This document shows, piece after piece, positions 20,285 through 60,867 of a stretch of DNA of 64,000 nt. Source of the stretch: Dehalococcoidia bacterium (lineage in GTDB: Bacteria; Chloroflexota; Dehalococcoidia; SHYB01). The notes below the pieces were generated by a model. The model did no database searches. It was not told the DNA's origin and saw nothing but the letters and a program-made list of their open reading frames with translations. The position numbers and the translations under genes are program-made. The number at the start of each line of letters is the position of its first letter. Within the stretch, counting starts at the first letter, position 1. The stretch is from NCBI GenBank assembly GCA_965219875.1, contig CBDCOW010000003.1, positions 1,002,458 through 1,066,457 of the forward strand, given 5' to 3'.

Positions 20285-20761
20285 ATGAGCGACACGACAC
20301 TCTCCGCGGTAGAGGCAAGGCTTGAACGCCACGGCGTGCGTCTGCCGCCGGCGCCCGAACCCGCCGCCAACTACGTCGAAGTCGTGGTCACGGGGAATCT
20401 GGCGTTCGTATCCGGCCATCTCGGCAGGAAAGCCGACGGTGCCAGGGTACCGGGGAGGCTGGGAGCCGACCTAGGCGTGGAGCAGGGTTACGACGCGGCG
20501 CGTCACGCGGCGTTGGCGGCGCTGGCGAGCCTGAAGGAGAGCTTGGGAAACCTCGATAGAGTCGTCCGCATCGTTCGTCTCCTCTGCGTTGTGAACTCGA
20601 CCCCCGAGTTCGCCGAGCAACACAAGGTGGCGAACGGCGCCTCCGATCTCTTCGTACAAGCCTTCGGCGAGTCCGGGCGGCATGCCCGGGCGGCGATCGG
20701 CGTCGCCGCCCTGCCGTTCGGGGCCTGCTGCGAAATCGAGCTCGTAGCCGAGGTCGCCTGA
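20285..20761 (+). CDS. RidA/YjgF/TdcF family protein
   Basis: LAFVSGHLG...PEFAEQHKVANGASDLF...ARAAIGVAALPFGACCEIELVAEV matches the RidA fold pattern. Confidence 0.8.
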   Translation: MSDTTLSAVEARLERHGVRLPPAPEPAANYVEVVVTGNLAFVSGHLGRKADGARVPGRLGADLGVEQGYDAARHAALAALASLKESLGNLDRVVRIVRLLCVVNSTPEFAEQHKVANGASDLFVQAFGESGRHARAAIGVAALPFGACCEIELVAEVA

Positions 20762-24355: not shown

Positions 24356-24745
24356 TCAGCCGATCACGGCGATGGCTTCGATCTCCAGGTTCAGTCCGGG
24401 CTCAGCGAGCGCGGCTACTTCCACCAGAGAGTTGGCCGGGTGCTGGCCGTCGAAGTACTGATCGTAGAGCGCGAGCTGATCGTCGGGAAGGGGCCACCAG
24501 TCGCCGATCTTGGTGACAAACGTGGTGATCTTCACGATGTCCGTTGGCTTCCCGCCCTCGGCCTCCACGATCCTGATCAGCTTGTCCAGCACTACTCGGA
24601 GTTGCTCGATTGCCGGCCCGCCCTCCGCTGGCGTCTTCATCGCGGTGCAGCCCGAGATGAAGAGCTGGTTACCGGCCCGTACCGCTCTGGCGTAGTTGGG
24701 GCCGGAGGGTGAGATGTCGGGATAGTCACGGCGCAGCTTGTCCAT
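24356..24745 (-). CDS. RidA family protein
   Basis: LFISGCTAM...PTDIVKITTFVTKIGDW...PANSLVEVAALAEPGLNLEIEAIAV. Confidence 0.8.
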   Translation of the reverse strand: MDKLRRDYPDISPSGPNYARAVRAGNQLFISGCTAMKTPAEGGPAIEQLRVVLDKLIRIVEAEGGKPTDIVKITTFVTKIGDWWPLPDDQLALYDQYFDGQHPANSLVEVAALAEPGLNLEIEAIAVIG

Positions 24746-29008: not shown

Positions 29009-29129
29009 CTTTATCCTCCTAACAGAAGTTCGATGCAAACTAGATGTATATACTCTAACAATGTAGCTTTAAGCGCGTTATTATGATTATAACCATAGAA
29101 ACCATCAGTGAGAAAGGGGTAGTCGGATT

Positions 29130-29750: not shown

Positions 29751-29892
29751 GTAGTCGTCAAGTCGGGTCAGGGTCAAGTAGTCGTGACCAAGGACGGCCC
29801 AGGTCAAGTAATCGTCCAAGGCTGATGGGATGGTGTCCCAGCGATGGGCTCCGGTACCACCTACTGTCCACTATGTTAAGGAAATTCAAACC

Positions 29893-29968
29893 TGGTGGAC
29901 CCGAGGGGAGTCGAACCCCTGACCTCCTGAATGCAAATCAGGCGCTCTCCCAACTGAGCTACGGGCCC
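29893..29968 (-). tRNA. tRNA-Ala (anticodon UGC), CCA encoded
   Basis: Manual fold of the reverse complement: acceptor GGGCCCG/CGGGUCC with the G3:U70 Ala identity pair, D-arm GCUC-AGUUGGGA-GAGC, anticodon stem CCUGA with loop UUUGCAU, T-arm AGGGG-UUCGACU-CCCCU, 3' ACCA. 76 nt. Confidence 0.9.
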
Positions 29969-30012
29969 GCGTGCGAACGCGCCGGACGGTACGGCGTCTG
30001 GTGACGCGCTGC

Positions 30013-42658: not shown

Positions 42659-43011
42659 AGGTCCGCATCACCGAATATCTCGACATCGACCTCGAACGGG
42701 AGCAGTGGACCTGCAACCGCTGCGACCGCGAACTCGGTCCGGCGCGCGAGAACTACAAGGAGTTCATGCTCGTCTACCAGCGCGACCCCAAGACGGTGCA
42801 CCACCCCCATCTCGACCCGAAGGAGCACCGCTACACGATGAGCTCCGACAAGGAGTGGGTGGGCATCCTCGAGTTCTACTGCCCCGGCTGCGCCGCGATG
42901 GTCGAGGTCGAATACCTGCCCCCCGGCCATCCGGTCACGCGGGACATCGAGCTCGACATCGACGCGCTGAAGCACAAGCACCTCGGCGGAGAGGGCGGCG
43001 CGGCGTCGTGA
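42655..43011 (+). CDS. Small Cys4 zinc-binding subunit, acetone-carboxylase gamma (AcxC)-like
   Basis: 118 aa with CNRCDRE...CPGCAAM. Translationally coupled on both sides (ATGA at 42655, GTGA at 43008) between two HyuA-like genes. The gamma-subunit assignment is from memory. Confidence 0.55.
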   Translation: MKVRITEYLDIDLEREQWTCNRCDRELGPARENYKEFMLVYQRDPKTVHHPHLDPKEHRYTMSSDKEWVGILEFYCPGCAAMVEVEYLPPGHPVTRDIELDIDALKHKHLGGEGGAAS

Positions 43012-45140
43012 GCTTAACCATCGACATCGACATCGGCGGTACGTTCACCGACTGCGTGCTCGTCGGGCCGCGGGGCATCATGCGCAGCAAGACCCCCACG
43101 ACGGCCTACGACCTGAGCGTCGGCTTCCGCCGCGGCATCGAAGACCTCGCCCTGCAGGTCGACCTTTCCTCTGAAGAGCTGATCGAGCAGTCGAACGTCA
43201 TCCGTTACTCGACGACGAGCGGACTTAACACGCTGCTGCAGCGCACCGGCCCCAAGCTGGGACTCATCACTACCACCGGCCACGAGCACGTCCTCATCAT
43301 CGGACGGTCGCGGCAGTGGGCCGACGGCCTGCCCGTGCAGGAGCGGCGCCTGCTCCACAAGGCGATGAAGCCCGAGCCGCTGATCACGCTCGACATGACC
43401 GTCGGCATACGCGAGCGCATCGACATGAACGGGAACGTGATAGTCCCGATCGACCGCGAGGACGTCCGCCGGAAGGTGCAGCACCTCGTCGATCAGGGCG
43501 CGCAGGGCTTCATTGTCTCCCTGCTGTGGTCCTTCCGGAACCCCGAGCACGAGCGCACGGTGCGCGAGGTCATCGAGGAGGAGTACCCCGGCTACTACCT
43601 CGGCGCGATGCCGATCATCCTCTCCAGCGACGTGCAGCCCAAGCGCCATGAGTACCCTCGGACGAACGTCGCCGTGCTCAGCGGCTACCTCCACCGCGAC
43701 ATGAGCGAGCAGCTCTCCCTGCTCACCGAGCAACTGCGCGACTACGGCTACCGCAAGCCGCTCTATCTGCTGAACAACATCGGCGGCGTCACCAAGGTCC
43801 CCCGCACCCGCGCCATCGACACCTTCGGCGCGGGCCCCGTTGCCGGCCTGATGGCCGGCGCCCACCTCTCGCGCATCTACGACCTGCCCCGCGTCCTCGT
43901 GACCGACATGGGCGGAACCAGCTTCGACTACGGCATGGTCATCGACGGCCAATGCCAGTCCTACGTCGATTGGCCCGTCATCGACCGCTGGGCCACCGAG
44001 AACACCATGCTCGAGGTGAGCTCCATCGGCGCGGGCGGCGGCTCGGTGGCGTGGGTCAACGAGGCCTTGGGCGGCAGATTCGAAGTCGGCCCCAAGAGCG
44101 CCGGATCGAACCCCGGCCCGGCCTGCTACGACCTCGGCGGCGACGAGCCCACGGTCGCCGACGCCGACGTCGTCCTCGGCTTCCTCAACCCCGACAACTT
44201 CCTCGGCGGCAGAATGTCCCTTAACCGCGAGAAGGCGGTGCAGGCGATGGAGCACCTCGGCAAGCCCCTCGGGGCCTCGCCCGAGGAGGCGGCGGCGATG
44301 GTCAAGGAGATCATCGACGCGAAGATGGGCAACATCATCGTCAAGGAGATCTCGCTCAAGGGCCACGCCGCCGGCGACTTCGTCCTCTTCGCCTACGGCG
44401 GCGCGGGGCCGACGCATTGCGCCGGCTACAACGAGCTGCTCAAGGCGCCCAAGATCATGACCTTCCCCCACGCCAGCGTCTTCTGCGCGCTCGGCGGCGC
44501 GATCATGGACTTCCGGCAGCGCTACGAGGCGTCCCGCCAGGTGACGATGTTCGACCCCGCGAACTCGGACCCCTATCTGGAAGACGTCGACGATTTCAAC
44601 CGCGCCGTCGGCGCCCTCCGCTCCATAGCTATCCAGGACGTGCGCGGCGAGGGCTTCGAGCCGGAGCAGGCGGTCTTCGAGCTCGAAATGGACATGTCCT
44701 ACGCCCGGCAGCACAACGTGATGCGGGTGCGCTCACCGGTCGTCACGCTGGAATCGGCGGACGACGTGCGCGCCATCTGCGACGCCTACACCCGGACCTA
44801 CGTCAACCGCTACACGGAGGCGGCGCTGGAGCCGGGCTCGCCCATCATCATTCACAACTTCTACCTCTTCGCCACCGCGCCGCTAGAGAAGCCGCGTCTG
44901 CCCACCTACCCGCCCGCCGGCGAGGATCCCGGCGCCGCGCATCTCGGCGAGCGCCAGGTCTACTGGCCCGACGCCAAGGGCCGACTGGCGACGAGCATCT
45001 ACGACGCCGACCGGCTCGCACCGGGGAACCTGGTGCGCGGCCCTGCCATCGTCGAGGCGCCGGACACCACCGTCGTCATCCCCCACGAGATGACCTACAG
45101 CCTCGACGAATATCTCACCGGAATCCTGGAGCAGCGCTAA
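43008..45140 (+). CDS. Hydantoinase A (HyuA) family ATPase subunit, copy 2
   Basis: VSLTIDIDIGGTFTDCVL...VLVTDMGGTSFDYGMV. GTG start overlapping the upstream TGA. Confidence 0.85.
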   Translation: MSLTIDIDIGGTFTDCVLVGPRGIMRSKTPTTAYDLSVGFRRGIEDLALQVDLSSEELIEQSNVIRYSTTSGLNTLLQRTGPKLGLITTTGHEHVLIIGRSRQWADGLPVQERRLLHKAMKPEPLITLDMTVGIRERIDMNGNVIVPIDREDVRRKVQHLVDQGAQGFIVSLLWSFRNPEHERTVREVIEEEYPGYYLGAMPIILSSDVQPKRHEYPRTNVAVLSGYLHRDMSEQLSLLTEQLRDYGYRKPLYLLNNIGGVTKVPRTRAIDTFGAGPVAGLMAGAHLSRIYDLPRVLVTDMGGTSFDYGMVIDGQCQSYVDWPVIDRWATENTMLEVSSIGAGGGSVAWVNEALGGRFEVGPKSAGSNPGPACYDLGGDEPTVADADVVLGFLNPDNFLGGRMSLNREKAVQAMEHLGKPLGASPEEAAAMVKEIIDAKMGNIIVKEISLKGHAAGDFVLFAYGGAGPTHCAGYNELLKAPKIMTFPHASVFCALGGAIMDFRQRYEASRQVTMFDPANSDPYLEDVDDFNRAVGALRSIAIQDVRGEGFEPEQAVFELEMDMSYARQHNVMRVRSPVVTLESADDVRAICDAYTRTYVNRYTEAALEPGSPIIIHNFYLFATAPLEKPRLPTYPPAGEDPGAAHLGERQVYWPDAKGRLATSIYDADRLAPGNLVRGPAIVEAPDTTVVIPHEMTYSLDEYLTGILEQR

Positions 45141-45145
45141 CAGCC

Positions 45146-47209
45146 ATGCCGGTAGACCGCGACGTCCTCGACCAAATCGGACTCGAACCCGCCACCCAAG
45201 CGGAGCTTGACGCCGCCGCCGCCATCTCCCCGAGCGAGTTCTCCGTCTATATGACGCGCATGGAACTGCTCTGCGAGGAGATGAAGCAGAACCTCGTCAA
45301 CATGGGCTTCGCCCCGCACCTTGAGCTTTCCGACTGCATCGTGCCGATCTTCTCGGCGAAGGGCGACCTCGTGCTCGGCTCCGGCGGCACCTATCTTCAC
45401 GCCGCGACGGGCGCCATCCCCGTCAAGTACATGCTCAAGCACTTCGCCGACGACCCCTCCGTGGGGATTCGAGACGGCGACCTCTTCCTCTGCAACGAGC
45501 CGATCTACGGCGGTATTCACCTTCCCGACTTCATCACCTTCATTCCCATCTTCTTCGAAGGCGAGATCATCGCGTGGGGCGCGGCCTGCAACCACGAGCC
45601 CGAGGTCGGCGGCGGCGAGCCGGGAGGCTACACGCCGGCGGCGCGGTCGAGGTTCGAGGAAGGGCTCCACGTGACGCCGGTGAAGATCGCCGAGAACTTC
45701 ACCCTCAAGAACGACGTCGCGGAGATGATGGCCTTCATGGTCCGGGACGAGCGCATGTTCATGGGCGACATGCGCGCCCGCATGGCCACGTGCATGAAGC
45801 TGCGCGAGCGCATCATCGAGCTGTGCGAAGAGAAGGGCAAGGACTTCGTCGTCGGGCTCATCCGCAAGGTGCTCGACACGGTTTCCGACTCCGCCAAGGA
45901 GCGCGTCCGCTCCATGAACGACGGCGTCTACCGCACCGCCTACTTCTTCGACACCATCGGCGGCATCGAGCACGCCCTCAACGTGGCGCACATCGCGATC
46001 GAGAAGAAGGACGACACCATCACCGTCGACTTGACCGGCACGTCGCCGCCCACGGGCACGGCGATGAACGCGAAGCCCCACATGGTCAGGGCCCTGCTCG
46101 CGGCGGACCTGATGCAGTACTTCTTTTCCGACCTGCCGGTCAGCGCCGCCGTCCTCCAGCCGCTGAAAATCATCGCGCCGGAGAACACCTGGGCCAACCC
46201 GCCCGACGAGGACGCGATCTCCACCAATCTCCGCCTCCTCGGTCCGGTCACCAACTACATGCACACCTGCTTCGTGAAGATGATGTTCGATAGCCCCTAC
46301 CGCGACTACATCATCACCCCCATCGGCACCGGGGGCGGCCAGGGCCACTTCCAGGCCGGCGGACGCGACCAGTACGGGCGCGTCTTCGGCTACACCCGCA
46401 TCGAGGTCTCCAACGCCTCGGGCAACGGCGCCACCGTGGAGCGCGACGGCATGGACGCCGGCGTCTTCTGGTACGCCGGCTTCGGTGACTCCCGCGACAT
46501 CGAGTGGGTCGAGACCCGCTACCCCTACCTCGCGCTCTTCCGGACCCTCATGACCGACCAGGCCGGCTACGGCAAGTACCGCGGCGGCGACGGCGTGGGC
46601 ATCACCTACATCGTCCACGGCGCTTCCTCGCCGCTCCGCATCATCCACGCCAACAGCATGACCCAGTTCTCGGCGGAGCCCGGCATCATGGGCGGCTACG
46701 CCGGCGGCAACGCACCGTTCCTCGAAATCCGGGGGACGCCGTGGCGCGAGCTCTTCCACGACCCCAGCGTCACGTTGCCGCGCACCTTCCACGACATGCT
46801 CGACGCCCAAGACCTAATCCCCTCGTACCCCACCCAGATCAGCTTCACCGAGCTGTTCGCCAACGGCGACGCCGTCGGCTCCGTGGGGCACTCCGCCGGC
46901 GGCTACGGCGACCCTCTCGAACGGGACCTCGAGGCCGTCGCGATCGACGTCAAGCAGGGCATCTGCTCCGAGTGGACGGCGCGGCAGGTCTATCACGTCG
47001 CCTTCGACGAGGTCACCGGCTTGGTGGACGAGAAGAAGACCGCCCGCCTGCGCGCCGCCGAGCGCGCCGCCCGCCTGAAGCGCGGCAAGCCTTACCACGA
47101 GTTCCTGAAGGGCTGGGAGAAAAAGCAGCCGCCCCAGGAATACATGCACCGGTACGGCCCCTGGCCGTGGGCCGTGACCGGCGCCCCGCCCGCCGACGGC
47201 GCCCCGTAG
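45146..47209 (+). CDS. Hydantoinase B / oxoprolinase (HyuB) family catalytic subunit (acetone carboxylase alpha-like)
   Basis: 687 aa at Hydantoinase_B length with conserved blocks (DLFLCNEPIYGGIHLPD, GGYAGGNAPF). ATG 45146 lies 5 nt after the upstream TAA. Confidence 0.9.
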   Translation: MPVDRDVLDQIGLEPATQAELDAAAAISPSEFSVYMTRMELLCEEMKQNLVNMGFAPHLELSDCIVPIFSAKGDLVLGSGGTYLHAATGAIPVKYMLKHFADDPSVGIRDGDLFLCNEPIYGGIHLPDFITFIPIFFEGEIIAWGAACNHEPEVGGGEPGGYTPAARSRFEEGLHVTPVKIAENFTLKNDVAEMMAFMVRDERMFMGDMRARMATCMKLRERIIELCEEKGKDFVVGLIRKVLDTVSDSAKERVRSMNDGVYRTAYFFDTIGGIEHALNVAHIAIEKKDDTITVDLTGTSPPTGTAMNAKPHMVRALLAADLMQYFFSDLPVSAAVLQPLKIIAPENTWANPPDEDAISTNLRLLGPVTNYMHTCFVKMMFDSPYRDYIITPIGTGGGQGHFQAGGRDQYGRVFGYTRIEVSNASGNGATVERDGMDAGVFWYAGFGDSRDIEWVETRYPYLALFRTLMTDQAGYGKYRGGDGVGITYIVHGASSPLRIIHANSMTQFSAEPGIMGGYAGGNAPFLEIRGTPWRELFHDPSVTLPRTFHDMLDAQDLIPSYPTQISFTELFANGDAVGSVGHSAGGYGDPLERDLEAVAIDVKQGICSEWTARQVYHVAFDEVTGLVDEKKTARLRAAERAARLKRGKPYHEFLKGWEKKQPPQEYMHRYGPWPWAVTGAPPADGAP

Positions 47210-49506: not shown

Positions 49507-50718
49507 CTACACGATCATGATGTCGCGGGTGAGGGTGCCCGACAGGTCGACCGGGGCGTCCTTCTTGATGAGATAGGTGTCTTCGAGCTGCATGCCGCCG
49601 AAGCCCATCTCGAAGAAGGGCGACTCGAAGTTGATCGTCATGTCCTCTTCGAGGGTGAAGTCGCCGTGGGGGTACCAGCACCACTGCTCGTAGAGCTCGA
49701 GGCCGATCACGTGGAACATGCAGAGGCCCTTGCCGGTGACGTAGTCCGGGCAGCCGTTCTTCTGGATTGCCTCGACGGCGATGCGGCAGACCTCCGAGGC
49801 GCTGGCGCCGGGGCGCATGGCCTCCATCGCCGCCTCGCGGCCCACGAGCATGGCCTGGTAGTACTGCTTGGCCTTGGCACTCGGCTCCCCAATTGAGCAT
49901 GTCCGGCCCAGGTCGGTCCAGTAGCGCTCATACGTCCCCTCGAAGTCGAAGCGAATGAGGTCGCCGGGCTGAATCTGGTAGCTCTCGTAGTCCTGGCGCT
50001 GGAAGAGGGCCATGCCCATCCTCCCCACGCCGCTGATGCGCGAGGGCACGCTCCGCATCGCGTTCTCCTTGGCCAGGCGAATGTCGTGTTGGATGAGCGC
50101 CTCGTTGAACGGCGCACCCTCTCGCAGGGCGATCACCACGTCCTCGATGCCGCGGAGGTTTGCCTCGTTCGCCTTGCGGATGATCTCGATCTCGTGCGCC
50201 GACTTCACCGAGCGGATGTGGCGGAAGGTCTGAATCACGTCCACGTAGCTGCCCGTGAAGGCGCCCGTGCGTTCGAGCTGCTGCGCCACACGCACGTCGT
50301 CGAAGCCCAAGTAGGCGTTGGTGAGGCCCAAGTCGGAGATCGTGTCGCCCAACGCCTCCATCCGGTCTTCGTAGTTCTTCTTGCGGCCCTCCTCGAACGC
50401 GGCGAGGTAGCGCTCTTCCGCGGGCATCGGCTTGTAGTCGGAGGTCGGCGGCACGGGCTCGACCTCGCGCCCCACCGTCCGCAGCGCCGGCTTGAAGTCG
50501 GGGTCGCGCCACACGAAGGGCAGCTCGTGATTAGCGATGATCAGTGTGATTTCGCCCGCCTCGTCGCTGGGGACGATGGCGAACGGCCCGCCGCCCCACA
50601 GGTGTGCGTCAGAGCCCCAGCCCGCCGCGTAGTTGAAGTTCGGCCCCCCGCTCAGGACGGCGGCTTCGACGCCGAGCTCCTGTAGGTGGCTGGCGGTGCG
50701 CTCTCGGTTTATCAGCAT
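49507..50718 (-). CDS. M24 family metallopeptidase (creatinase/Xaa-Pro aminopeptidase-like)
   Basis: Creatinase_N-like N-domain plus pita-bread domain with metal ligands (DLIRFDFEG..., HVIGLELYE, EEDMTINFESPF). Confidence 0.85.
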   Translation of the reverse strand: MLINRERTASHLQELGVEAAVLSGGPNFNYAAGWGSDAHLWGGGPFAIVPSDEAGEITLIIANHELPFVWRDPDFKPALRTVGREVEPVPPTSDYKPMPAEERYLAAFEEGRKKNYEDRMEALGDTISDLGLTNAYLGFDDVRVAQQLERTGAFTGSYVDVIQTFRHIRSVKSAHEIEIIRKANEANLRGIEDVVIALREGAPFNEALIQHDIRLAKENAMRSVPSRISGVGRMGMALFQRQDYESYQIQPGDLIRFDFEGTYERYWTDLGRTCSIGEPSAKAKQYYQAMLVGREAAMEAMRPGASASEVCRIAVEAIQKNGCPDYVTGKGLCMFHVIGLELYEQWCWYPHGDFTLEEDMTINFESPFFEMGFGGMQLEDTYLIKKDAPVDLSGTLTRDIMIV

Positions 50719-50752: not shown

Positions 50753-52162
50753 CTATGAGGGAATCGCGACGACGTCGATTTCCAGTTGCAATTCTGGGTA
50801 GGGACCGATCTCGTCGGCCCCGATCACCGTCGTCGGCGGTATCTTGCCGTCGTAGATGACCCTAGCGACGCGCTCCAGGGCGGCGAGCTTCGATACGTCG
50901 ACCAGGTAGAGCACCTGATGCACCACCCTCGATATATCCGATCCCGCCTCTTTCAGCAGCCTCTGGTAGGTGCGGTAGATGTGCCATGCCTGGCACATCA
51001 TCGTTTCCGATTCAGGGTCGTCGTAGTGCGCCAGGCCCATGAGCTTGCCGTGGTCGCGCAGTTGGTCGAACGTCACGATGGGGAAGTTTGCCTGGTCGCG
51101 CCCCGAGTAGCCGGTGAGGAAGATGAGCGGCCCTGCCTGCTGCGTCATCGGGATCGGCCCGCTGACGATCTCGGGGTAGGTCTTGCCGACCTTCTCCCAC
51201 TCGCCGCCGGGGACGACGGCCACCGAGTCCATCACCCCCATCGCGTCGGGGTCGCCGCTCAGACGCCCCGCGCCCATGGTGAAGCCGGTGATCGTGGGCG
51301 CCGTTCCCGGGTCCGGGTTGTCGAACGCGTAGAGCGGTACGAAGACGCCGACGTCCACCATCCCCACGCTGGTGCAGAGGTTGTAGCGCAGCATGTCGGT
51401 CAACGACGCGCCCTGGCTCTCAAGCAGCCGCTTTGAGTTGGAGCGGACCAACGCCATCTGCGCCTTGAATGCTTCGAGCGACACGTCGATGTGGTAGCTG
51501 CCGCTCGTCAGGAACGCGGACCCTTCGTCGTTCACTTCGGCGAGCCGGGTGGGCACTCGGCCCGTCTCCGGGTCCACGCCGTAGAGCCCGGAGGTGAAGA
51601 GCAGGTCGCCGACGCGGACCCCCTGCGGGTACGGAGGGCAGACCTTTTCGAGTCCAGGCACGTGCACCGCGGTAGTGGTCAGGCCGCCTTCCTCCGGCAC
51701 GATCGCGACGACCTCGACGATGATGCGGTAGTCGTCGTGGTAGCCGTTGTCGGTCATGCGAGCGATGGTCGTCGCCGGCTTCTCGCCGGGGAAGAAGGAC
51801 TGCATCACCCGCTCGGCGTTGCGGATGTCGCGCCAGTCGGTGAGGTACAGCCGCTGCCGGACGACGTGTTCGAGCGACGAGCCCTGCGATTCCAGGATGT
51901 GCGACAGGTTCTGGTAGACCTGCCACGTCTGGGCGTTGATCGGGCCCTCGCGCCCGTCGCCGTGGACGCCCCACGACCGGAGCCCCTCGATCGCGTCCTC
52001 GGGGAGATCGGGGAGCTTCCGGATGACCTTGCCTGTCTCCGGGTTCCGGGGCGTCTGCCCCGAGAGAAAGAGAAACTGCCCGGCTCGGGTCCCGGTAGGG
52101 GCTGCGCCCAAACTCTCAAGCTCGGCGGGGAACCAGAAGTCTTGACGGTCCAAGATACGCAC
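50753..52162 (-). CDS. Triple tandem RidA/YjgF-domain fusion protein (single-chain pseudo-trimer)
   Basis: Three successive ~150-aa RidA-like modules: LFLSGQTP...LYLTDWRDI; LLFTSGLYGVDPETG...YNLCTSVGM; LIFLTGYSGRD...YLVDVSKLAA...TTVIGADEIGP. Confidence 0.7.
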   Translation of the reverse strand: MRILDRQDFWFPAELESLGAAPTGTRAGQFLFLSGQTPRNPETGKVIRKLPDLPEDAIEGLRSWGVHGDGREGPINAQTWQVYQNLSHILESQGSSLEHVVRQRLYLTDWRDIRNAERVMQSFFPGEKPATTIARMTDNGYHDDYRIIVEVVAIVPEEGGLTTTAVHVPGLEKVCPPYPQGVRVGDLLFTSGLYGVDPETGRVPTRLAEVNDEGSAFLTSGSYHIDVSLEAFKAQMALVRSNSKRLLESQGASLTDMLRYNLCTSVGMVDVGVFVPLYAFDNPDPGTAPTITGFTMGAGRLSGDPDAMGVMDSVAVVPGGEWEKVGKTYPEIVSGPIPMTQQAGPLIFLTGYSGRDQANFPIVTFDQLRDHGKLMGLAHYDDPESETMMCQAWHIYRTYQRLLKEAGSDISRVVHQVLYLVDVSKLAALERVARVIYDGKIPPTTVIGADEIGPYPELQLEIDVVAIPS

Positions 52163-52267: not shown

Positions 52268-53134
52268 CTAGCGAAGGAACGGCAGGATCACGTCCGCGAT
52301 GCGCCGGGGCTCGAACTCGATCACCTCGGCGCCGGTGTCCTCCAGCGTCGCCAGCGCGCCGTCGCCGAGCCGCTCCACGACCGCCGCGCCCTGCCTCCCC
52401 AGGTGCGCCTCGTCCGCCTTCGCCAGCTCGATCACCAGCGTCGGATTCGGAATGCGCCGCACCGCCTCGCCGAAGTCGAACGAGAAGTTGGCCTCGTAGA
52501 GCGGGCCCAGGCCGGCGCGGGCCTGGAGGAAGTCGATGGCGCGGGCTTCGAGCACCCCCAGCGTCTCGGCTGAAAGCCCCCGCGACGACATCGCGCGTTC
52601 GTGCCACCAGATGCCGGTCAGATTGGTGAAGCCCGCGGCCCAGTCGGCGAGCAGCCCCGCCGCCTCCGATTCGGCTTCCGCGGTGAAGTACCGGTCGACG
52701 ATGGCGTGGATGGCGGCGTCGCGGGCCTCTTTCGTCACGACGATGCTATGCGTCTCGCCGCACAAGACCAGCTTCGCGACGCGGTCGGGCCATCCCGCGG
52801 CGAGCGCGGCCCCGATCTTGTTTCCCGTATGCACCCCGAAGACGTGCGCCCGCTCGATCCCGACCACGTCGAGGAAGCCGGTAACGCTGCGCGCCAGATC
52901 GTGCATCGTCACCGCAGGCGGCAACGGATTGGAGCCGCCCGACCCCAGCGTGTCGAGCGCCAAGACCCGGCGCTCCTCGGCCAGCAGGGGCATGAGACCC
53001 GCGTAGACTCGCGACGACCGGGGGCTGGCGTGGAGCAGCACGAGCGGCGTGGTGTCCCCACCGCCTTCCTCGGCGTAGTGCATCTCTCCCATCGGTGTCG
53101 CCGCGTAGGCGTGCTTCAACGGCGTGCTCCTCAA
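52268..53134 (-). CDS. Alpha/beta-hydrolase fold protein (unusual H-T-G at the nucleophile-elbow position)
   Basis: LVLLHASPRSSRVY...VFGVHTGNKIG. Paralogue of 58057..58908. Confidence 0.75.
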   Translation of the reverse strand: MRSTPLKHAYAATPMGEMHYAEEGGGDTTPLVLLHASPRSSRVYAGLMPLLAEERRVLALDTLGSGGSNPLPPAVTMHDLARSVTGFLDVVGIERAHVFGVHTGNKIGAALAAGWPDRVAKLVLCGETHSIVVTKEARDAAIHAIVDRYFTAEAESEAAGLLADWAAGFTNLTGIWWHERAMSSRGLSAETLGVLEARAIDFLQARAGLGPLYEANFSFDFGEAVRRIPNPTLVIELAKADEAHLGRQGAAVVERLGDGALATLEDTGAEVIEFEPRRIADVILPFLR

Positions 53135-53181: not shown

Positions 53182-53505
53182 CTACGAAGTTGGGATTAGG
53201 CTTCTGACGCGCTGTCCGCCGATAGCGACTACGCCCTCTGCGTTCAGGCCGCCGATCGCGACAACCCCGATCGCGTTGATTCCGCCAATCGCGACGACGC
53301 CCATCGCGTTGACCCCGCCGATCGCAACCAGTCCCATGGCATTCACGGGGGAGAACGTCACCAACCCCATCGCGTTGACCACGCTGAGCGCGACAAGACC
53401 GACCGCGTTGAAGGTACTCGCTGCCACGGCTCCGACCGCGTTGGTGCCCACCGCGACAATCCCAATCGCATTCTTGCCCCTGACGACTAAGTCCTGCGTT
53501 TGCAT
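53182..53505 (-). CDS. Small repeat protein: eight tandem 11-residue repeats x-N-A-x-G-x-V-A-I-G-G (33-nt DNA repeats)
   Basis: ATG 53505 preceded by GGAGGG 5 nt upstream. Protein KNAIGIVAVGT NAVGAVAAST FNAVGLVALSV VNAMGLVTFSP VNAMGLVAIGG VNAMGVVAIGG INAIGVVAIGG LNAEGVVAIGG. The opposite strand also translates repetitively (PPIATTPIAL...), so strand choice rests on the RBS and ATG. Confidence 0.45.
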   Translation of the reverse strand: MQTQDLVVRGKNAIGIVAVGTNAVGAVAASTFNAVGLVALSVVNAMGLVTFSPVNAMGLVAIGGVNAMGVVAIGGINAIGVVAIGGLNAEGVVAIGGQRVRSLIPTS

Positions 53506-53599: not shown

Positions 53600-54280
53600 C
53601 TATAGCCCCAAGATGCTCCGCACTTCGGTCACGCGGTCAATGACGTGGTCCGGGGGCCGCAGACCCGCCGGGTAATCCCGGCGCCGCCTGATCCAGGCGG
53701 CCTGCATGCCGAAGCGTTTGGCCCCGTCGACGTCGGCCGTTGGGTTGTCGCCAACAAACAGGGCTCGTTCCGGAGCCGTGAGTCCGGCCGCTCGGAGCGC
53801 ATCCCGGAATATCCTCTGGTCGGGTTTCTCATAGCCGGCCTCTTCGGAGACGATGATGAACGGCGCGAGCCGGTCGAGGCCCGCCCCCCTGCATTTGCCG
53901 CGCTGCCGACTCGTATCGCCATTCGTGACAATGCCCCAGGGCATCCCACGCTCGGTGAGTTCAGCGAGCATGGCGTTGACCTCCGCATCCGGCCTCGCGA
54001 GGTGGTCCATCGCCGAGCCGTACCACGCCGCCACCGATTCGTCATCCAAGCCGGTGTTGGGCCACTCGTTGAGCCATCGCCTGCGCGTCGCTTGGCGGGC
54101 TCCGTAGCCGTCCTCGTCCCAGAGGACCATCAACTCGACCGCCTCGTTCCGCGTCACGGAATGCCCGGCGGCGAGGTACTCGTCGTAGAAGGCCTCCGCC
54201 ACACTCTGGAACAAGGCCTCCCTATCGAGGAGGGTGTTGTCGAGGTCGAAGATCACGGCTTCGACCGGGGTCGCGTCCAA
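53600..54280 (-). CDS. HAD-superfamily hydrolase
   Basis: IFDLDNTLLD (motif I), VTNGD (II), K...GDNPTADVDGAKRFG (III/IV). Confidence 0.8.
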   Translation of the reverse strand: MDATPVEAVIFDLDNTLLDREALFQSVAEAFYDEYLAAGHSVTRNEAVELMVLWDEDGYGARQATRRRWLNEWPNTGLDDESVAAWYGSAMDHLARPDAEVNAMLAELTERGMPWGIVTNGDTSRQRGKCRGAGLDRLAPFIIVSEEAGYEKPDQRIFRDALRAAGLTAPERALFVGDNPTADVDGAKRFGMQAAWIRRRRDYPAGLRPPDHVIDRVTEVRSILGL

Positions 54281-54309: not shown

Positions 54310-56082
54310 TTACCGCGTCCCCGGTGGGGCGACGCTGACCGTGATGATTTCGGTCCCGTGGAACTGTTGGTGCCGCACCGACGAGGCGTAGCGCCGTAGC
54401 AGCCGGAGTGAGATTTCGTGCTCCATCGGTGTCTCTTCGTCGTGCTGCTGCAGCTGCCGGATCCGGTCTTCCAGGTTCCCCTCTTCGCTGTCTCCGCCGA
54501 TGAACTCCATCTCAGCCACCGGGCCCTCGCTCGCCGCCAGCACGATCAGCCGCCGTCCCCCCTCCTCGTCGGCCTCCTCTTCCTCCTCTGCATCGAGGTC
54601 GAGACTCAAGTCCAGCGGGGCTAGCGTCAAGAGCGTCTCTTCGGCGACCGCGCTCAGCCGGTCCTTCATCGCGGAGTCCCAGCCCCTGCTGAGGGCGAAC
54701 TCCTCGACGAAAGCGTTGAGGTCCGGCAAGACGCTGCTGTCCAGCCGCGACTCGAAACGCATGCGGCGGGGCTGGGAAAGCTCCAGGAAGAGAATCATCG
54801 CGATCACGGCGATTCCCCCAGTCGTGATGCCGCTCTGGAGCAGGCCCTGCCATACCGCACCGAGGCTTGGCAGAGTGAACAGTTTGAACTGGAACGCCGC
54901 GCCGATCCAGAAAGCGACGCCCGCGGCGACGACCTTCTGCTTGTTCTGCTCGGTGTTAACAACCGTCTGCATTCCTGCCACCATGAGCGTTCCCGTCACC
55001 AGGATCAGGTAGCCGGTCATGACCGGCCCCGGAATGGTGCTGAGCAGTCCCGACACCTTCGGCACAAACGCCAGCGCGATGAAGATCGTTCCGATAATGT
55101 AGCCGACCCGCCGGGAGGCGACCCCGGTGATTTGCGTGAACGAAACAATCCCCGGATTGATCGCGGTCGGGACCGCGCCCGCGACGCCGGCAAAGAGGTT
55201 GGCGGCGCCGGACCCCGAGATCGCGCCTTGCACCTCACGAAAGTCGACCGCCCGGTCCTCACGCCGCGCCACCCGCTGGAGCGCGATAGCCTCGCCGTTG
55301 GCCTGAATGGAGTTGATCACGCCGAGGAACAAGAAGGCGGGGAGCAGCGTCCAGAAAGCGGTGCTGAAGTCGAGGGCTAGCCCCGGCGATTCGTTGGGCA
55401 GGCCAATCCAGGGGGCGTCGATCACCCGCTGGGCGTCGTAGATGCCGAAGGCCGCCGCGACGCCACAGCCAGCGACGATGCCGATCACCGGCGCCCAGAG
55501 GCGCCACACCGGCGAGCCGCGAAGGGTGAGGGCGCCGACGATGACCAGCGTCGTCAGCGCGGTCAAGGGCGCCGCCGTCGGCTCCTCCAGCGACGCCTCG
55601 TCCAAGAGACCGAATACGACGGAGGCCAGGGTGATCGAGAGGATCATCATCACCGTTCCGCCGACAGTCGGGGTGACGATGCGCCGCAAGATGAACAGCC
55701 ACCGGGAAATGATGAGTTGGACGATTGCGGCGGCCAGGATCAGGGTGGTCAGCGTCGCCGGCCCTCCGTCCACCAGCGCCGTGATACAGAACGGGATGGA
55801 GAACGCGGCGGTGAAGAATGGGAGAACGGTGGCGGCCCCAATCGGTCCCAGCCGGCGGACCTGCACCAAGGTAGCCGCGCCGACGACGAGCAGCGAGGCG
55901 AAGACCATCCACACCAGGTAGGACTCGCCCCTCCCCGATGCGTTGGCGACGATCACGGGTGTGATCAGCAGGGTGGCGGAGGCGATGAGGCTGAACTGCA
56001 GGCCCAGCCCCAAGGAGAGGAGCCAAGGCGCGTTCTCGTTCGCCTCGTACCGGGGATTCTCAGAAGCCGGCGCAGCGGTCAC
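54310..56082 (-). CDS. NCS2-family nucleobase:cation symporter (xanthine/uracil permease-like) with ~170-aa acidic cytoplasmic C-terminal extension
   Basis: 12-14 TM profile with NCS2-like TM1 (GLQFSLIASATLLITPVI) and a GxxxQ-containing core. The C-terminal tail has a DLDAEEEEEADEEGG acidic run. GTG start. Confidence 0.7.
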   Translation of the reverse strand: MTAAPASENPRYEANENAPWLLSLGLGLQFSLIASATLLITPVIVANASGRGESYLVWMVFASLLVVGAATLVQVRRLGPIGAATVLPFFTAAFSIPFCITALVDGGPATLTTLILAAAIVQLIISRWLFILRRIVTPTVGGTVMMILSITLASVVFGLLDEASLEEPTAAPLTALTTLVIVGALTLRGSPVWRLWAPVIGIVAGCGVAAAFGIYDAQRVIDAPWIGLPNESPGLALDFSTAFWTLLPAFLFLGVINSIQANGEAIALQRVARREDRAVDFREVQGAISGSGAANLFAGVAGAVPTAINPGIVSFTQITGVASRRVGYIIGTIFIALAFVPKVSGLLSTIPGPVMTGYLILVTGTLMVAGMQTVVNTEQNKQKVVAAGVAFWIGAAFQFKLFTLPSLGAVWQGLLQSGITTGGIAVIAMILFLELSQPRRMRFESRLDSSVLPDLNAFVEEFALSRGWDSAMKDRLSAVAEETLLTLAPLDLSLDLDAEEEEEADEEGGRRLIVLAASEGPVAEMEFIGGDSEEGNLEDRIRQLQQHDEETPMEHEISLRLLRRYASSVRHQQFHGTEIITVSVAPPGTR

Positions 56083-58912: not shown

Positions 58913-59917
58913 CTACTCCGTCGCGCCGTCCATGGCGTCGATGATCGATTGAATGTACCGGTCCTCGTCATACCCCTCGCGCGGCGGGAAGGGGTAGAGG
59001 ATAGGCAGATCCACGCCGGCGGCGCGAAACTCCTCGACGCGCTCCTTGGTGCGGTCGTAGCCCGCCGCTACGGGAAGCTGATCGAGCATGTCCTCGGTCA
59101 CGAAGGAGGCCGCCGCGCGCGAGTCGCCGCGCTCCCAGGCCTCCTTGAAGCCCGCCGCCTGTTCGCGATAGCCAAGCTCCTCGTAGTGGTTCCGGTACCG
59201 GTCCAGCCAAGCATAGAAGGCGATCGCGTCGATGATGTCGCTCCGGGCCTGTGCCTCGTCGCGGTCCGGTACGCACATGATGAAGGAGCCCACGTCGATC
59301 TCCGACGGATCGCGGCCGGCCTCGCGAGCCCCCTCGGCGATGGCCTCGCGGATGCGGCCCACGTGGTCCTTGTCCGCGAGGTGGAGGATGACGCCGTCGG
59401 CGATCCGCCCCGCGATGCGGGCCATGTAGGTCCCGACGACGCCCATGTATATCGGCACGTCGAAGGGGGCGCCCTCCGCCTGGATGCGCAGCCCGTCGAC
59501 GCCGCACGCCTTGCCGCGATAGGTAACCGACTCGCCGGTGAGGAGCCGCCGCACGATCTCCACGTACTCCCGCGTCCGCGTGATGGGCTTGTCGTACGGT
59601 ATCTGGTGGACCACCTCGATCAGCCGCTGATGGCTGCTGCCGATCCCGAGGGTGAAACGCCCGCCGCTGACGTGGTGCAGCGTCGCCGCGCCCAGCCCCA
59701 CCAGTCCGGGCGACCGGGTGAAGGCGCTGATGACGGCGGTACCGAGCCTGACGCCCTCGGTCCGCACGGCGACCGCCGAGAGGTAAGTGAAGGCGTCCCA
59801 GTCCTGCCCCTCGTGGAACCAGCAGATCTCCAGGCCGCGGTCGTTGGCGGCGCGAACGACCTCGACCATGCGGTCAACGGGGAGCGGTGCGTCGATTTGG
59901 AGTCCAAGTCTCGGCAT
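58913..59917 (-). CDS. LLM-class (luciferase-like) flavin/F420-dependent oxidoreductase
   Basis: TIM-barrel LLM pattern (LGLQIDAP...EICWFHEG...LGTAVISAFTRSP...FTLGIGSSHQ). Confidence 0.85.
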   Translation of the reverse strand: MPRLGLQIDAPLPVDRMVEVVRAANDRGLEICWFHEGQDWDAFTYLSAVAVRTEGVRLGTAVISAFTRSPGLVGLGAATLHHVSGGRFTLGIGSSHQRLIEVVHQIPYDKPITRTREYVEIVRRLLTGESVTYRGKACGVDGLRIQAEGAPFDVPIYMGVVGTYMARIAGRIADGVILHLADKDHVGRIREAIAEGAREAGRDPSEIDVGSFIMCVPDRDEAQARSDIIDAIAFYAWLDRYRNHYEELGYREQAAGFKEAWERGDSRAAASFVTEDMLDQLPVAAGYDRTKERVEEFRAAGVDLPILYPFPPREGYDEDRYIQSIIDAMDGATE

Positions 59918-59919
59918 GA

Positions 59920-60825
59920 TTAGAAAACCGCGATGGGGTTGAGCGGCGAGCCCGTGCCCCCCACGACGTTGAGCGGGGCCGCGGTCAGCATGAACTCGTA
60001 GCGGCCCTCCTCCTCGCAGGCCTGGGCGAGGGGTTCGAGCAGGCAGCTATCGAGCAGCACAATACCGAAGGTGAAGAGAGCGGTGTGCGGTGTGTTGTCG
60101 CGTGTCCCGTATTCGTTGGGGAAGGCGTCGTGCATGTCCCAGGCGAGGACGGCGACGTCGCGCTCGCGGAGGAACTTGTTGCACGAAGCGCCGAGTCCGG
60201 GCCGGCTCCCCTCCGTCCTGTACGCGCCCCCGGCCCCGCGCCCCGAGTAGACCACCACCGCGTCGCCGGGCCCGACCTCCAGGCCGAGCTGCTCGACGAT
60301 TTCGTCGAGCTCCCAGTTGAGCACGGGGGTATCCGGCGTGACGCAGGGGACGCCGCGGTACTTGGGCACGTTGAGGAAGACGCCGCGGGTGAGGATGCCT
60401 TCCGACCAAGCCTCGATGCCGCCGGAGGTCGCGCCCCGCGTGGTGATCATCTTGTCGGGGTCGACGCCGTCCCAGCCGCCCCCTTCGACGTCCCAGAGGT
60501 GGCAGAGCGCGTCGACGTGGGTGGTGGAGACGGTGTGATAGTCGGTGCCGTAGAAGTCGCAGGCCTCGCCCCGCAGGCCGCGGTCGATGGTGTAGGTGTA
60601 GTGAAGGGCGGGGCGCTCATTGTCGGGGCCCGCCACGGTGGGAAAGACCTGACTGAGTGAGACCTGCCGCCCCTTCTTCACCAGGCTCGCGGCCTGGACG
60701 ACCTTCTCCGGCGTCACCAAGTTCATCGTGCCCTTGGCGCCGTTCTCGCCCCACCGGCCCCAGTTCCGGCCCTCGTTCATTAGCTTTTCGAGCTCCGCTT
60801 CGGTGGGCAGTCGGGGGTCTGGCAT
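59920..60825 (-). CDS. Cyclase-family protein (kynurenine-formamidase-like metal hydrolase)
   Basis: HVDALCHLWD matches the cyclase-family HxGTHxDAxxH metal-binding motif region. Confidence 0.75.
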   Translation of the reverse strand: MPDPRLPTEAELEKLMNEGRNWGRWGENGAKGTMNLVTPEKVVQAASLVKKGRQVSLSQVFPTVAGPDNERPALHYTYTIDRGLRGEACDFYGTDYHTVSTTHVDALCHLWDVEGGGWDGVDPDKMITTRGATSGGIEAWSEGILTRGVFLNVPKYRGVPCVTPDTPVLNWELDEIVEQLGLEVGPGDAVVVYSGRGAGGAYRTEGSRPGLGASCNKFLRERDVAVLAWDMHDAFPNEYGTRDNTPHTALFTFGIVLLDSCLLEPLAQACEEEGRYEFMLTAAPLNVVGGTGSPLNPIAVF

Positions 60826-60867
60826 CGCTTCGCTCTCCTTGGGCCGCTTGGCCGCCGTAGGTTGGGG

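What the first reader, a model, noticed from the sequence alone, without database searches (positions are those of the whole stretch)
50753..52162. Single-chain triple RidA (three tandem YjgF/RidA domains); three further RidA genes in the window
RidA proteins are obligate homotrimers with active sites at subunit interfaces. Here three RidA-like modules are fused in one 469-aa chain. That would make a covalent pseudo-trimer whose three interface sites can diverge independently. The modules are clearly non-identical. Monomeric RidA genes also sit at 20285 and 24356 next to PPOX, FAH and Rieske-oxygenase genes. This suggests enamine/imine detoxification tied to an amino-acid or aromatic catabolic route.
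Basis: partly seen in the sequence, partly recalled or inferred. Interest (0 to 1): 0.55.

Follow-up and report, generated by a model that had tools for sequence, protein, structure and literature searches.

The report
Arginine-less single-chain triple Rid protein
A 469-residue protein of a Dehalococcoidia bacterium really is three fused RidA-like domains predicted to pack as one compact unit, but such fusions were described in 2015 and are fairly common, and this one lacks the arginine that classic RidA imine deaminases need.

Summary
ORF 50753-52162 (-) encodes 469 aa made of three mutually homologous Rid (YjgF/YER057c/UK114) modules (hhalign E 2.5e-34 to 5e-19). An AlphaFold model is confident (pLDDT 90.6, pTM 0.91). 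Each module matches PDB 3lyb (TM 0.91), and the whole chain aligns to chorismatases. The novelty claim fails: Niehaus et al. 2015 named '3x-RidA' and presumed covalent trimers. This lineage is nevertheless distinct. It has 66 collinear relatives, and the genome-resolved ones are all Chloroflexota. Every module carries a ~28-aa insertion shared with 3lyb, and no module has the Arg105 equivalent that RidA imine hydrolysis needs (Thr / Pro-Thr / Thr). The other canonical residues survive asymmetrically: Tyr17 only in module 2, Glu120 only in module 3. Immediate neighbours are often C-N hydrolases (M24, amidase, Amidohydro_1/2), and the 3lyb monomer sits in an amidohydrolase-creatininase operon. 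Best reading: a diverged pseudo-trimer serving nitrogen-compound catabolism, not a classic 2-aminoacrylate deaminase. Only two further Rid genes are in the window, not three. The case is a moderately interesting variant of a known architecture.

The parts
50753..52162 (-). 3xRid gene: 469 aa, GTG start, stop codon at 50753-50755. It lies 34 nt upstream of the M24 gene and 105 nt downstream of the alpha/beta-hydrolase gene.
   Evidence: ORF list; PF01042 at E 4.1e-31; 66 collinear homologues.
51689..52162 (-). Module 1 (aa 1-158). This is the best-conserved module. The Arg105 equivalent is T131, the Tyr17 equivalent is T23, the Asn88 equivalent is E117, and D/E150 is acidic in 99% of members.
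   Evidence: hhalign between modules; hhalign against E. coli RidA; conservation in 67 sequences; phmmer hit to 3lyb at E 4.8e-16; coordinates.
51221..51688 (-). Module 2 (aa 159-314). This is the most degenerate module. It keeps the Tyr17 equivalent (Y178; Y/F in 91% of members). The Arg105 equivalent is P289/T290, and the Glu120 equivalent is V310.
50756..51220 (-). Module 3 (aa 315-469). The Arg105 equivalent is T444 (T in 84% of members). It keeps the Glu120 equivalent E461 (88%), and D463 is E/D in 82%.
51941..52024 (-). Insertion of module 1 (aa ~47-74), between the first beta-hairpin and helix 1. It is partly helical, absent from classical RidA and present in 3lyb.
   Evidence: Gap against E. 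coli RidA; aligned to 3lyb; helix 55-61 and a pLDDT dip in the model.
51467..51550 (-). Insertion of module 2 (aa ~205-232), at the same position as in module 1.
50999..51082 (-). Insertion of module 3 (aa ~361-388), at the same position as in module 1.
49507..50718 (-). Downstream gene on the same strand: an M24 metallopeptidase-fold hydrolase (prolidase/creatinase-like, 403 aa), probably co-transcribed with the 3xRid gene.
   Evidence: PF00557 at E 3e-28. Best PDB matches are Xaa-Pro dipeptidases. All NCBIfam hits are below their cut-offs. The gene order is kept in L001-L004.
52268..53134 (-). Upstream gene on the same strand: an alpha/beta-fold hydrolase (288 aa).
   Evidence: PF00561; conserved in L001-L004.
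53600..54280 (-). HAD-type hydrolase (226 aa) in the same conserved block.
   Evidence: PF00702/PF13419.
54310..56082 (-). NCS2 nucleobase-type permease (590 aa) at the head of the conserved block.
   Evidence: PF00860; TIGR00801/TIGR03173 hits below their cut-offs.
20285..20761 (+). Monomeric Rid gene (158 aa, PF14588 type). It keeps the Arg105 equivalent (R135). It is not part of the 3xRid locus.
24356..24745 (-). Monomeric Rid gene (129 aa, PF01042). It has Asn at the Arg105 position. It is not part of the 3xRid locus.

Best explanation
The gene encodes a covalent pseudo-trimer of the Rid (YjgF/YER057c/UK114) fold. It most likely arose by triplication of an insertion-bearing, arginine-less Rid module of the type seen in PDB 3lyb. 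One chain is predicted to fold into one compact three-module body; that this body reproduces the Rid homotrimer was not tested directly. Such a body would have three non-equivalent inter-module clefts in place of three identical active sites. Shown: the three-module anatomy, the high-confidence compact model, the loss of the Arg105 equivalent in every module, and the asymmetric retention of the other canonical residues. Inferred: the protein is not a classic 2-aminoacrylate / alpha-imino-acid deaminase. It probably binds a small nitrogenous metabolite in one or two of the diverged clefts and converts it by hydrolysis or tautomerisation. Candidate residues are E461/D463/T444 of module 3, Y178 of module 2, and E117/E150 of module 1. 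It probably acts as an accessory step alongside the C-N-bond hydrolases that it is repeatedly encoded next to, within a nucleobase/cyclic-amide-type catabolic island.
For: Anatomy: only PF01042 is found, and the modules are mutually homologous at hhalign E 2.5e-34 to 5.2e-19. Fold: the AF2 model has pLDDT 90.6 and pTM 0.91, and each module shows the Rid beta-beta-beta-alpha-beta-alpha-beta-beta pattern with ~8-residue linkers. Foldseek matches each module to 3lyb at TMt 0.90-0.91 and 30% identity, matches RidA structures at TMt 0.8-0.9, and aligns the whole chain to chorismatases 4bps/5ag3 over 411-412 columns at TMt 0.62-0.63. Active-site residues: the E. coli RidA ruler is identical to 1qu9. 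Against it, R105 maps to T131 / P289-T290 / T444, Y17 is kept only as Y178, and E120 only as E461. The same holds across 67 members at 18-95% identity, with no Arg at these positions. By contrast, a classical 3x-RidA (P0126) keeps Y17, G31, N88, R105 and E120 in all three modules. Arg105 is essential for imine hydrolysis, and the Arg-less Rid4-7 'appear not to hydrolyze imines' (PMC4433059). Context: a C-N hydrolase is the immediate neighbour in 5 of 9 distinct contexts. These are M24 (window, and L055), amidase (L055, and L059), Amidohydro_2 (L053) and Amidohydro_1 (L051). A luciferase-like oxidoreductase is present in 4 of 9. The 3lyb monomer itself lies in an amidohydrolase - Rid - creatininase-family - ABC transporter - FAD oxidoreductase operon, conserved between Klebsiella and a Comamonadaceae plasmid at 53% identity.
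Against: No coordinates were available, so the pseudo-threefold packing was not superposed on a real Rid trimer, and I could not say which modules pair at which cleft. The neighbours are not orthologous between loci: the M24 partners are only 23-25% identical. Some contexts have no hydrolase at all, so the association holds at family level and is loose. Every neighbour scores below its curated NCBIfam cut-off, so no pathway can be named. Loss of Arg does not exclude imine hydrolysis of substrates without an alpha-carboxylate, and about 10% of RidA-subfamily proteins have Ser at this position. Most invariant residues are Gly, Pro or hydrophobic, so a non-catalytic role is possible.
Confidence: 0.55

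Rival explanations
1. One reading: a covalent RidA trimer that detoxifies enamines and imines (2-aminoacrylate or other imino acids), with three independently tunable deaminase sites.
For: PF01042 and TIGR00004 are the best family matches. JGI labels homologues 'enamine deaminase RidA'. Module 3's best PDB match by sequence is 2-aminomuconate deaminase AmnE (6izh, E 6.8e-7). The 3lyb operon contains an FAD-binding oxidoreductase that could generate imines. Rid genes clustering with FAD amine oxidases is a known pattern (PMC4433059).
Against: The Arg105 equivalent is missing from all three modules in all 67 members, and this residue is essential for imine hydrolysis. The TIGR00004 score summed over three modules is still below its cut-off (89.6 vs 106.25 bits). 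AmnE itself has the Arg ('GPART' aligned to 'IPPTT'). No PLP-dependent dehydratase or amine oxidase lies next to the gene in the window.
Confidence: 0.17
2. A non-catalytic pseudo-trimer: a small-molecule-binding, regulatory or chaperone-like protein that has lost the Rid active sites.
For: None of the canonical catalytic constellations is complete. Most invariant positions are Gly, Pro, Phe, Leu or Ala. Module 2 is clearly degenerate (mean conservation 0.40 against 0.45 for the others). Other Rid proteins have been assigned non-enzymatic activities (listed in PMC4433059).
Against: Several polar residues at active-site-equivalent positions are well conserved over 18-95% identity: E461 in 88%, D/E150 in 99%, T444 in 84%, Y/F178 in 91%. 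The gene sits inside catabolic enzyme operons, not beside regulators.
Confidence: 0.12
3. An artefact: three adjacent monomeric Rid genes joined by sequencing or assembly errors, or a decaying pseudogene.
For: A paralogous copy in a closely related genome (97% identity across this block, L005) is broken into two ORFs.
Against: The ORF is uninterrupted and has strong coding GC3. It is 94-97% identical and intact in four other MAGs. It is collinear in 66 clusters from independent data sets. The linkers are short and the model is confident as one body.
Confidence: 0.01

Closest known systems
3x-RidA proteins
   Same: Three Rid domains are fused head to tail in one chain of ~385-470 aa, presumed to be a covalent version of the Rid homotrimer.
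   Different: 3x-RidA are described as a subset of the archetypal RidA subfamily. P0126 keeps Y17, G31, N88, R105 and E120 in all three modules and has no insertions. The window protein has a ~28-aa insertion in every module, no Arg105 equivalent anywhere, and the other catalytic residues scattered over different modules. The shared insertion argues for a separate triplication event.
PDB 3lyb, 'putative endoribonuclease' KP1_3112 of Klebsiella pneumoniae (structural-genomics entry, function unknown)
   Same: It is the best match for each module: Foldseek TMt 0.90-0.91, rmsd 1.7-1.8 A, 30% identity, and phmmer E 4.8e-16 to module 1. It has the same insertion between the first hairpin and helix 1, and a hydroxyl residue (Ser) at the Arg105 position. 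It is encoded among C-N hydrolases.
   Different: 3lyb is a single-domain protein of 159-165 aa, and its neighbours (amidohydrolase, creatininase family, FAD oxidoreductase) are different families from those in the window.
Chorismatases FkbO/Hyg5 (PDB 4bps, 5ag3)
   Same: They are the only solved single chains that the whole model aligns to (411-412 columns, TMt 0.62-0.63). To my own knowledge (Juneja et al. 2014 J Mol Biol; Hubrich et al. 2015 JACS, not readable here), they are pseudo-trimers of three YjgF-like domains with one functional active site. That is a precedent for asymmetric divergence of the clefts.
   Different: Sequence identity is only 11-14%, rmsd is 5.1-5.5 A, and the chorismatase chain is ~330 aa against 469 aa. 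No chorismatase-specific Pfam family matches. There is no secondary-metabolite or shikimate context.
Rid4-Rid7 subfamilies (arginine-less Rid proteins of unknown function)
   Same: They lack the catalytic arginine, are bacterial, often co-occur with other Rid paralogues, and have unknown function.
   Different: Rid4 and Rid7 have Trp at the Arg position, whereas this protein has Thr/Pro/Thr. Those subfamilies are described as single-domain proteins. Assignment to CDD subfamily models could not be run here.

Membership tests
Rid (YjgF/YER057c/UK114) superfamily | Significant match to PF01042 / the Rid fold | tested here: met
   PF01042 scores 107.9 bits against a cut-off of 27.3. Each module matches RidA-family structures at TMt 0.8-0.9.
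Archetypal RidA subfamily (imine/enamine deaminase) | Conserved Arg105 (E. coli numbering) that binds the substrate carboxylate | tested here: not met
   The position is T131 / P289-T290 / T444. No Arg is found at these positions in any of 67 members. The ruler sequence was verified against 1qu9.
Archetypal RidA subfamily (imine/enamine deaminase) | Score above the NCBIfam TIGR00004 'Rid family detoxifying hydrolase' cut-off | tested here: not met
   89.6 bits, summed over 4 stretches, against a cut-off of 106.25.
Archetypal RidA subfamily (imine/enamine deaminase) | Tyr17 and Glu120 conserved in each subunit | tested here: not met
   The Tyr17 equivalent is kept only in module 2 (Y178) and the Glu120 equivalent only in module 3 (E461). 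The other modules have T/I and I/V at these positions.
Archetypal RidA subfamily (imine/enamine deaminase) | Imine/enamine hydrolase activity | not testable with these tools
   Needs an enzyme assay.
3x-RidA (Niehaus 2015) | Three Rid domains fused in tandem in one polypeptide | tested here: met
3x-RidA (Niehaus 2015) | Domains belong to the RidA subfamily proper | tested here: not met
   The Arg is absent and all modules carry insertions. The classical example P0126 differs at every canonical site.
3x-RidA (Niehaus 2015) | Chain folds as a covalent equivalent of the Rid homotrimer | tested here: inconclusive
   pTM of 0.91 supports one compact body, and the whole chain aligns to chorismatases. 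No coordinates were available for superposition on a real trimer.
3lyb-type insertion-bearing Rid | ~25-28-aa insertion after the first beta-hairpin; close structural match to 3lyb | tested here: met
   TMt 0.90-0.91 and 30% identity. The insertion aligns residue by residue in module 1 and module 3.
Rid4-Rid7 (Arg-less subfamilies) | Arg105 replaced (Trp in Rid4/Rid7, variable in Rid5/Rid6) with Glu120 retained | tested here: inconclusive
   The Arg is absent, which is consistent, but no Trp is present, so this is not Rid4 or Rid7. Glu120 is retained only in module 3.
Rid4-Rid7 (Arg-less subfamilies) | Assignment by the NCBI CDD subfamily models (cd06151-cd06154, cd02198 etc.) | not testable with these tools
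Chorismatase (FkbO/Hyg5/XanB2) | Single chain of three YjgF-like domains | tested here: inconclusive
   The overall fold is similar (TMt 0.62-0.63 over ~412 columns), but rmsd is above 5 A.
Chorismatase (FkbO/Hyg5/XanB2) | Sequence membership in the chorismatase family | tested here: not met
   No Pfam family other than PF01042 matches at E<=1. Identity to 4bps and 5ag3 is 11-14%.

The most novel reading that the evidence does not exclude
The insertion-bearing, arginine-less 3xRid family is a new enzyme type. On this reading, triplication freed the three clefts to specialise, as in chorismatases. One asymmetric cleft, built from module-3 Glu461/Thr444 and a neighbouring module's Tyr/Phe or Glu, would now catalyse a reaction not known for Rid proteins. 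An example would be processing an unstable product of cyclic-amide or guanidino-compound hydrolysis in Chloroflexota. That would also give a first functional handle on arginine-less Rid proteins, whose Rid4-7 subfamilies were described as 'completely unknown' in function.
Probability: 0.2. Interest if true: 0.55.

Novelty: new variant of a known kind. Interest (0 to 1): 0.3.

Why it matters
Rid proteins are ubiquitous, yet only the arginine-containing subfamilies have a defined activity. A single-chain pseudo-trimer breaks the threefold symmetry. Conservation can then show which cleft, and which residues, are under selection, which is impossible in a homotrimer. This family, together with its 3lyb-type monomeric cousins, offers a tractable entry to the function of arginine-less Rid proteins: it is probably monomeric, models confidently, has clear candidate residues, and sits next to C-N hydrolases. 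No 3x-Rid protein other than chorismatases turned up in the PDB searches run here, so a structure would be new. The architecture itself was described a decade ago and is common in metagenomes, so the find is incremental.

Tried and rejected
1. Rut-pathway analogy (RutA LLM, RutC Rid, RutD alpha/beta hydrolase, RutG permease). Rejected: the LLM at 58913-59917 falls in the F420-dependent classes, not RutA. The RutC and RutD scores are far below their cut-offs (47 vs 169 bits; 38 vs 238 bits).

2. A fixed M24 partner. The window and the distant member P0017 both have an M24 gene downstream, but the two M24 proteins share only 23-25% identity. The link therefore holds at family level only.

3. A third 'further RidA' gene. 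None was found with Pfam on 49 ORFs, with module HMMs against all six frames, or with phmmer using the two monomers.

4. Single-domain relatives as ancestors. The genome hits L008-L050 turned out to be ordinary ~126-aa Rid proteins without the insertion: the profile match skips positions 45-68. They say nothing about the origin of this family. Only 3lyb-type proteins share the insertion.

5. Promoter and terminator scans around the operon gave counts no better than shuffled sequence.

6. Literature searches for chorismatase structure papers, Rid4-7 function, and creatininase+RidA operons found nothing usable in the held library. The chorismatase pseudo-trimer statement therefore rests on my own knowledge plus the Foldseek hit.

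7. I could not determine which modules pair at which cleft, because model coordinates are not exposed.
Full report
**1. The observation**

The window has an uninterrupted ORF at 50753..52162 on the minus strand, 469 aa with a GTG start. Its codon-position GC (0.65/0.43/0.89) is typical of genuine genes in this ~66% GC sequence. Pfam matches a single family, PF01042 Ribonuc_L-PSP (E 4.1e-31), in four stretches. PDB sequence hits fall in three separate zones of the protein.

I collected 15 full-length homologues and aligned them with the window protein (A1). I then cut the alignment at aa 1-158, 159-314 and 315-469. Profile-profile comparison of the parts gives:
- M1-M2: E = 2.5e-34, 28% identity
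- M1-M3: E = 1.7e-29, 26% identity
- M2-M3: E = 5.2e-19, 17% identity

Each comparison covers nearly the whole module.

The two monomeric Rid genes at 20285 and 24356, and their PNPOx-like, FAH and Rieske neighbours, are also real. A third 'further' Rid gene was not found by any of three searches.

**2. Where it comes from and how common it is**

The window is 97% identical across this block to a Dehalococcoidia MAG chromosome (OZ253453.1). All genome-resolved full-length relatives found were Chloroflexota: Dehalococcoidia, Anaerolineae and an unclassified Chloroflexota MAG.

An exhaustive HMMER search of 1.84 billion representative proteins with the family profile gave 12,330 hits at E<=1e-3 and 178 at E<=1e-30. 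Sixty-six are collinear full-length members of this same family, at 18-95% identity to the query (median 30%).

The remaining triple proteins belong to other lineages:
- classical ones such as P0126 (384 aa, no insertions)
- secreted ones such as P0018-P0020 and P0119
- other insertion-bearing ones such as P0049 and P0061
- P0096, a protein with five or more Rid modules

Public sources label family members only as 'RidA family protein' or 'enamine deaminase RidA'.

**3. Prior knowledge**

Niehaus et al. [quoted passage not shown] EF_0115 in Enterococcus faecalis V583)... presumably covalently linked trimer units'. No later paper in the held library uses the term. No 3x-Rid chain appears among PDB sequence hits, where all true hits are 165 aa or shorter.

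**4. Structure**

AlphaFold2 on alignment A1 gives mean pLDDT 90.6 and pTM 0.91. Each module has the beta-beta-beta-alpha-beta-alpha-beta-beta Rid pattern, and only about eight residues separate the last strand of one module from the first strand of the next. Confidence dips mainly in the three insertions. A pTM this high for 469 residues means the relative placement of the modules is predicted confidently.

Foldseek against the PDB gave three kinds of match:
- 3lyb for single modules (TMt 0.90-0.91, rmsd 1.7-1.8 A, 30% identity)
- many RidA structures (TMt 0.8-0.9)
- chorismatases 4bps and 5ag3, the only whole-chain matches (411-412 aligned columns, TMt 0.62-0.63)

From my own knowledge (Juneja et al. 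2014; Hubrich et al. 2015, whose title is attached to 5ag3), chorismatases are single chains of three YjgF-like domains with pseudo-threefold symmetry and one working active site. The covalent pseudo-trimer reading is thus supported. I could not superpose the model on a real trimer because coordinates are not exposed.

**5. What distinguishes this lineage**

*The insertion.* Every module has a ~28-aa insertion (aa 47-74, 205-232, 361-388) between the first hairpin and helix 1. It is absent from E. coli RidA and from the ordinary ~126-aa Rid proteins recovered from genomes. It is present, and aligns residue by residue, in 3lyb. Because all three modules share it, the triplication most parsimoniously happened after the insertion arose. 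That makes it independent of the triplication that produced classical 3x-RidA.

*The catalytic residues.* I used E. coli RidA as a ruler; the sequence is identical to 1qu9. The canonical residues map as follows:

| E. coli RidA | Module 1 | Module 2 | Module 3 |
|---|---|---|---|
| R105 | T131 | P289/T290 | T444 |
| Y17 | T23 | Y178 | Ile/Pro |
| E120 | I148 | V310 | E461 |
| N88 | E117 | not mapped | Glu in most members |

Across 67 members no Arg occurs at any of the three R105-equivalent columns. The conserved polar residues are distributed asymmetrically:
- Y/F178 in 91% of members
- T444 in 84%
- E461 in 88%
- D/E150 in 99%
- E/D463 in 82%
- E117 in 67%

Module 2 is the least conserved. 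The classical 3x-RidA P0126 keeps Y17, G31, N88, R105 and E120 in all three modules.

[quoted passage not shown] The summed TIGR00004 score (89.6 bits) is also below NCBI's cut-off of 106.25. The 'enamine/imine detoxification' interpretation is therefore not supported for classic alpha-imino-acid substrates. It cannot be excluded for substrates that lack an alpha-carboxylate.

**6. Genomic context**

In the window and four close relatives, one block is conserved on a single strand: NCS2 permease - HAD hydrolase - small repeat ORF - alpha/beta hydrolase - 3xRid - M24 hydrolase. The gap between 3xRid and the M24 gene is 34 nt. Further along lie another alpha/beta hydrolase, an F420-class luciferase-like oxidoreductase, a cyclase-family protein and a second M24. 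On the other side lie hydantoinase A/B genes.

Divergent members have these neighbours:
- Amidohydro_1 immediately upstream (P0007)
- SDR upstream, Amidohydro_2 and an LLM downstream (P0005)
- amidase upstream and Creatinase_N/M24 downstream, plus a second 3xRid paralogue (45% identical to the query) inside an oligopeptide-type ABC transporter operon (P0017 locus)
- amidase and an LLM (P0040)
- cyclase and PNPOx (P0022)
- CMD and CoA-transferase (P0024)
- Asp/Glu racemase-type (P0029)
- an LLM immediately upstream (L007)

In total a C-N hydrolase is the immediate neighbour in 5 of 9 distinct contexts, and an LLM is present in 4 of 9. The partners are not orthologous: the M24 proteins are 23-25% identical.

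Independently, the 3lyb monomer of Klebsiella lies in an operon of PDR/VanB oxidoreductase - amidohydrolase - Rid - creatininase-family protein - ABC transporter - FAD-binding oxidoreductase. The same gene set accompanies a 53%-identical homologue on a Comamonadaceae plasmid. Insertion-type Rid modules, whether single or tripled, thus recur with enzymes that open amide or cyclic-amide bonds.

No pathway can be named, because every neighbour scores below its curated NCBIfam cut-off. The Rut-pathway analogy fails.

**7. Most likely mechanism**

*Shown:* one chain carries three Rid modules. A compact body is predicted with high confidence. The arginine is lost everywhere, and the surviving polar residues are distributed asymmetrically.

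*Inferred:* the protein is a monomeric mimic of the Rid trimer whose three clefts are no longer equivalent. One or two clefts probably retain function, by analogy with chorismatases. The conserved acidic and hydroxyl residues (E461, D463, T444, D/E150, E117) and Y/F178 would line them. The protein probably binds a small nitrogenous metabolite generated or consumed by the adjacent hydrolases and catalyses a hydrolytic or tautomerisation step.

My confidence is about 0.9 for the structural part and about 0.75 for 'not a classic 2-aminoacrylate / imino-acid deaminase'. It is about 0.5 for the role in C-N catabolism, and about 0.55 for the whole statement.

**8. Verdict**

The protein belongs to the Rid superfamily. 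It fails the defining tests of the archetypal RidA subfamily, and hence of 3x-RidA in the strict sense. It is best described as a new variant, an arginine-less, insertion-bearing lineage so far found in genomes only of Chloroflexota, of a known and fairly common architecture. Interest is modest (0.3). Its main value is as a symmetry-broken handle on the unknown function of arginine-less Rid proteins.

Noticed in passing
L005 10001-11400 and 18159-18602 (OZ253453.1, a genome closely related to the window): A second, 70%-identical 3xRid copy is split into two ORFs (359 + 107 aa), next to fragmented M24 and cyclase genes. A further 147-aa 3xRid fragment lies 7 kb away. This is either a decaying duplicated catabolic block or indel errors in a long-read assembly.
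   Followed up: partly
window 53182-53505 (-), tandem repeat 53216-53411: A small ORF (107 aa) is built from ~6 copies of a 33-nt unit (70% matches), encoding 'NA(I/M)G(V/L)VA(I/V)GG'-like repeats. It has no Pfam or NCBIfam match, yet it is kept as an ORF at 61-64% identity in three related MAGs, between the HAD and alpha/beta-hydrolase genes.
   Followed up: partly
window 26900-29970: A low-GC stretch (0.55-0.59 against ~0.66) borders the window's only Rfam hit, a tRNA at 29896-29968 (-). Its ORFs are unannotated, including a 340-aa protein with a Cys-rich C-terminus. It may be a small island inserted at the tRNA.
   Followed up: no
L055 3589-5013 and 8001-9395: Two paralogous 3xRid genes (45% and 30% identical to the query) lie in one locus. 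The closer one is embedded between the two ATPase genes of an oligopeptide-type ABC transporter. The other lies between an amidase and a Creatinase_N/M24 gene.
   Followed up: partly
P0096 (803 aa), P0131 (842 aa), P0126 (384 aa), P0018-P0020: Other multi-Rid architectures turned up. P0096 has five or more Rid modules behind a hydrophobic N-terminal stretch that may be a signal peptide. P0131 has three arginine-containing Rid modules with long N- and C-terminal extensions. P0126 is a classical 3x-RidA from a diplonemid (Lacrimia lanifica) transcriptome. P0018-P0020 are ~400-aa proteins with hydrophobic N-termini that look like a secreted triple-Rid family (module count judged by eye).
   Followed up: partly
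P0006 (402 aa): A chimeric protein: a MacB-like periplasmic domain (PF12704) is joined to the C-terminal half of the 3xRid protein at 91% identity. It is probably a metagenome misassembly or a miscalled gene.
   Followed up: no
window 24356-24745 (-) and 20285-20761 (+): The two monomeric Rid genes differ at the catalytic arginine. The 24356 protein has Asn at the Arg105 position, while the PF14588-type 20285 protein keeps Arg (R135). Only the latter fits the imine-deaminase prediction.
   Followed up: yes
window 40643-47209 (+), 49507-50718 (-), 59920-62019 (-), 14736-16601 (-): The window is dense in enzymes that act on C-N bonds: hydantoinase A/B (oxoprolinase-type), two M24 creatinase/prolidase-like genes, a cyclase-family gene and an amidase. 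It also has peptide-type ABC transporters, CoA-transferases and acyl-CoA dehydrogenases. Overall it looks like a broad catabolic region.
   Followed up: partly
L060 (Klebsiella plasmid NZ_CP084170.1) and L061 (Comamonadaceae plasmid CP099606.1): The structural-genomics protein 3lyb belongs to a conserved, apparently uncharacterised operon: amidohydrolase, creatininase-family protein, ABC transporter and FAD-binding oxidoreductase in both plasmids, plus a PDR/VanB oxidoreductase in Klebsiella. No paper in the held library mentions creatininase, RidA and amidohydrolase together.
   Followed up: partly
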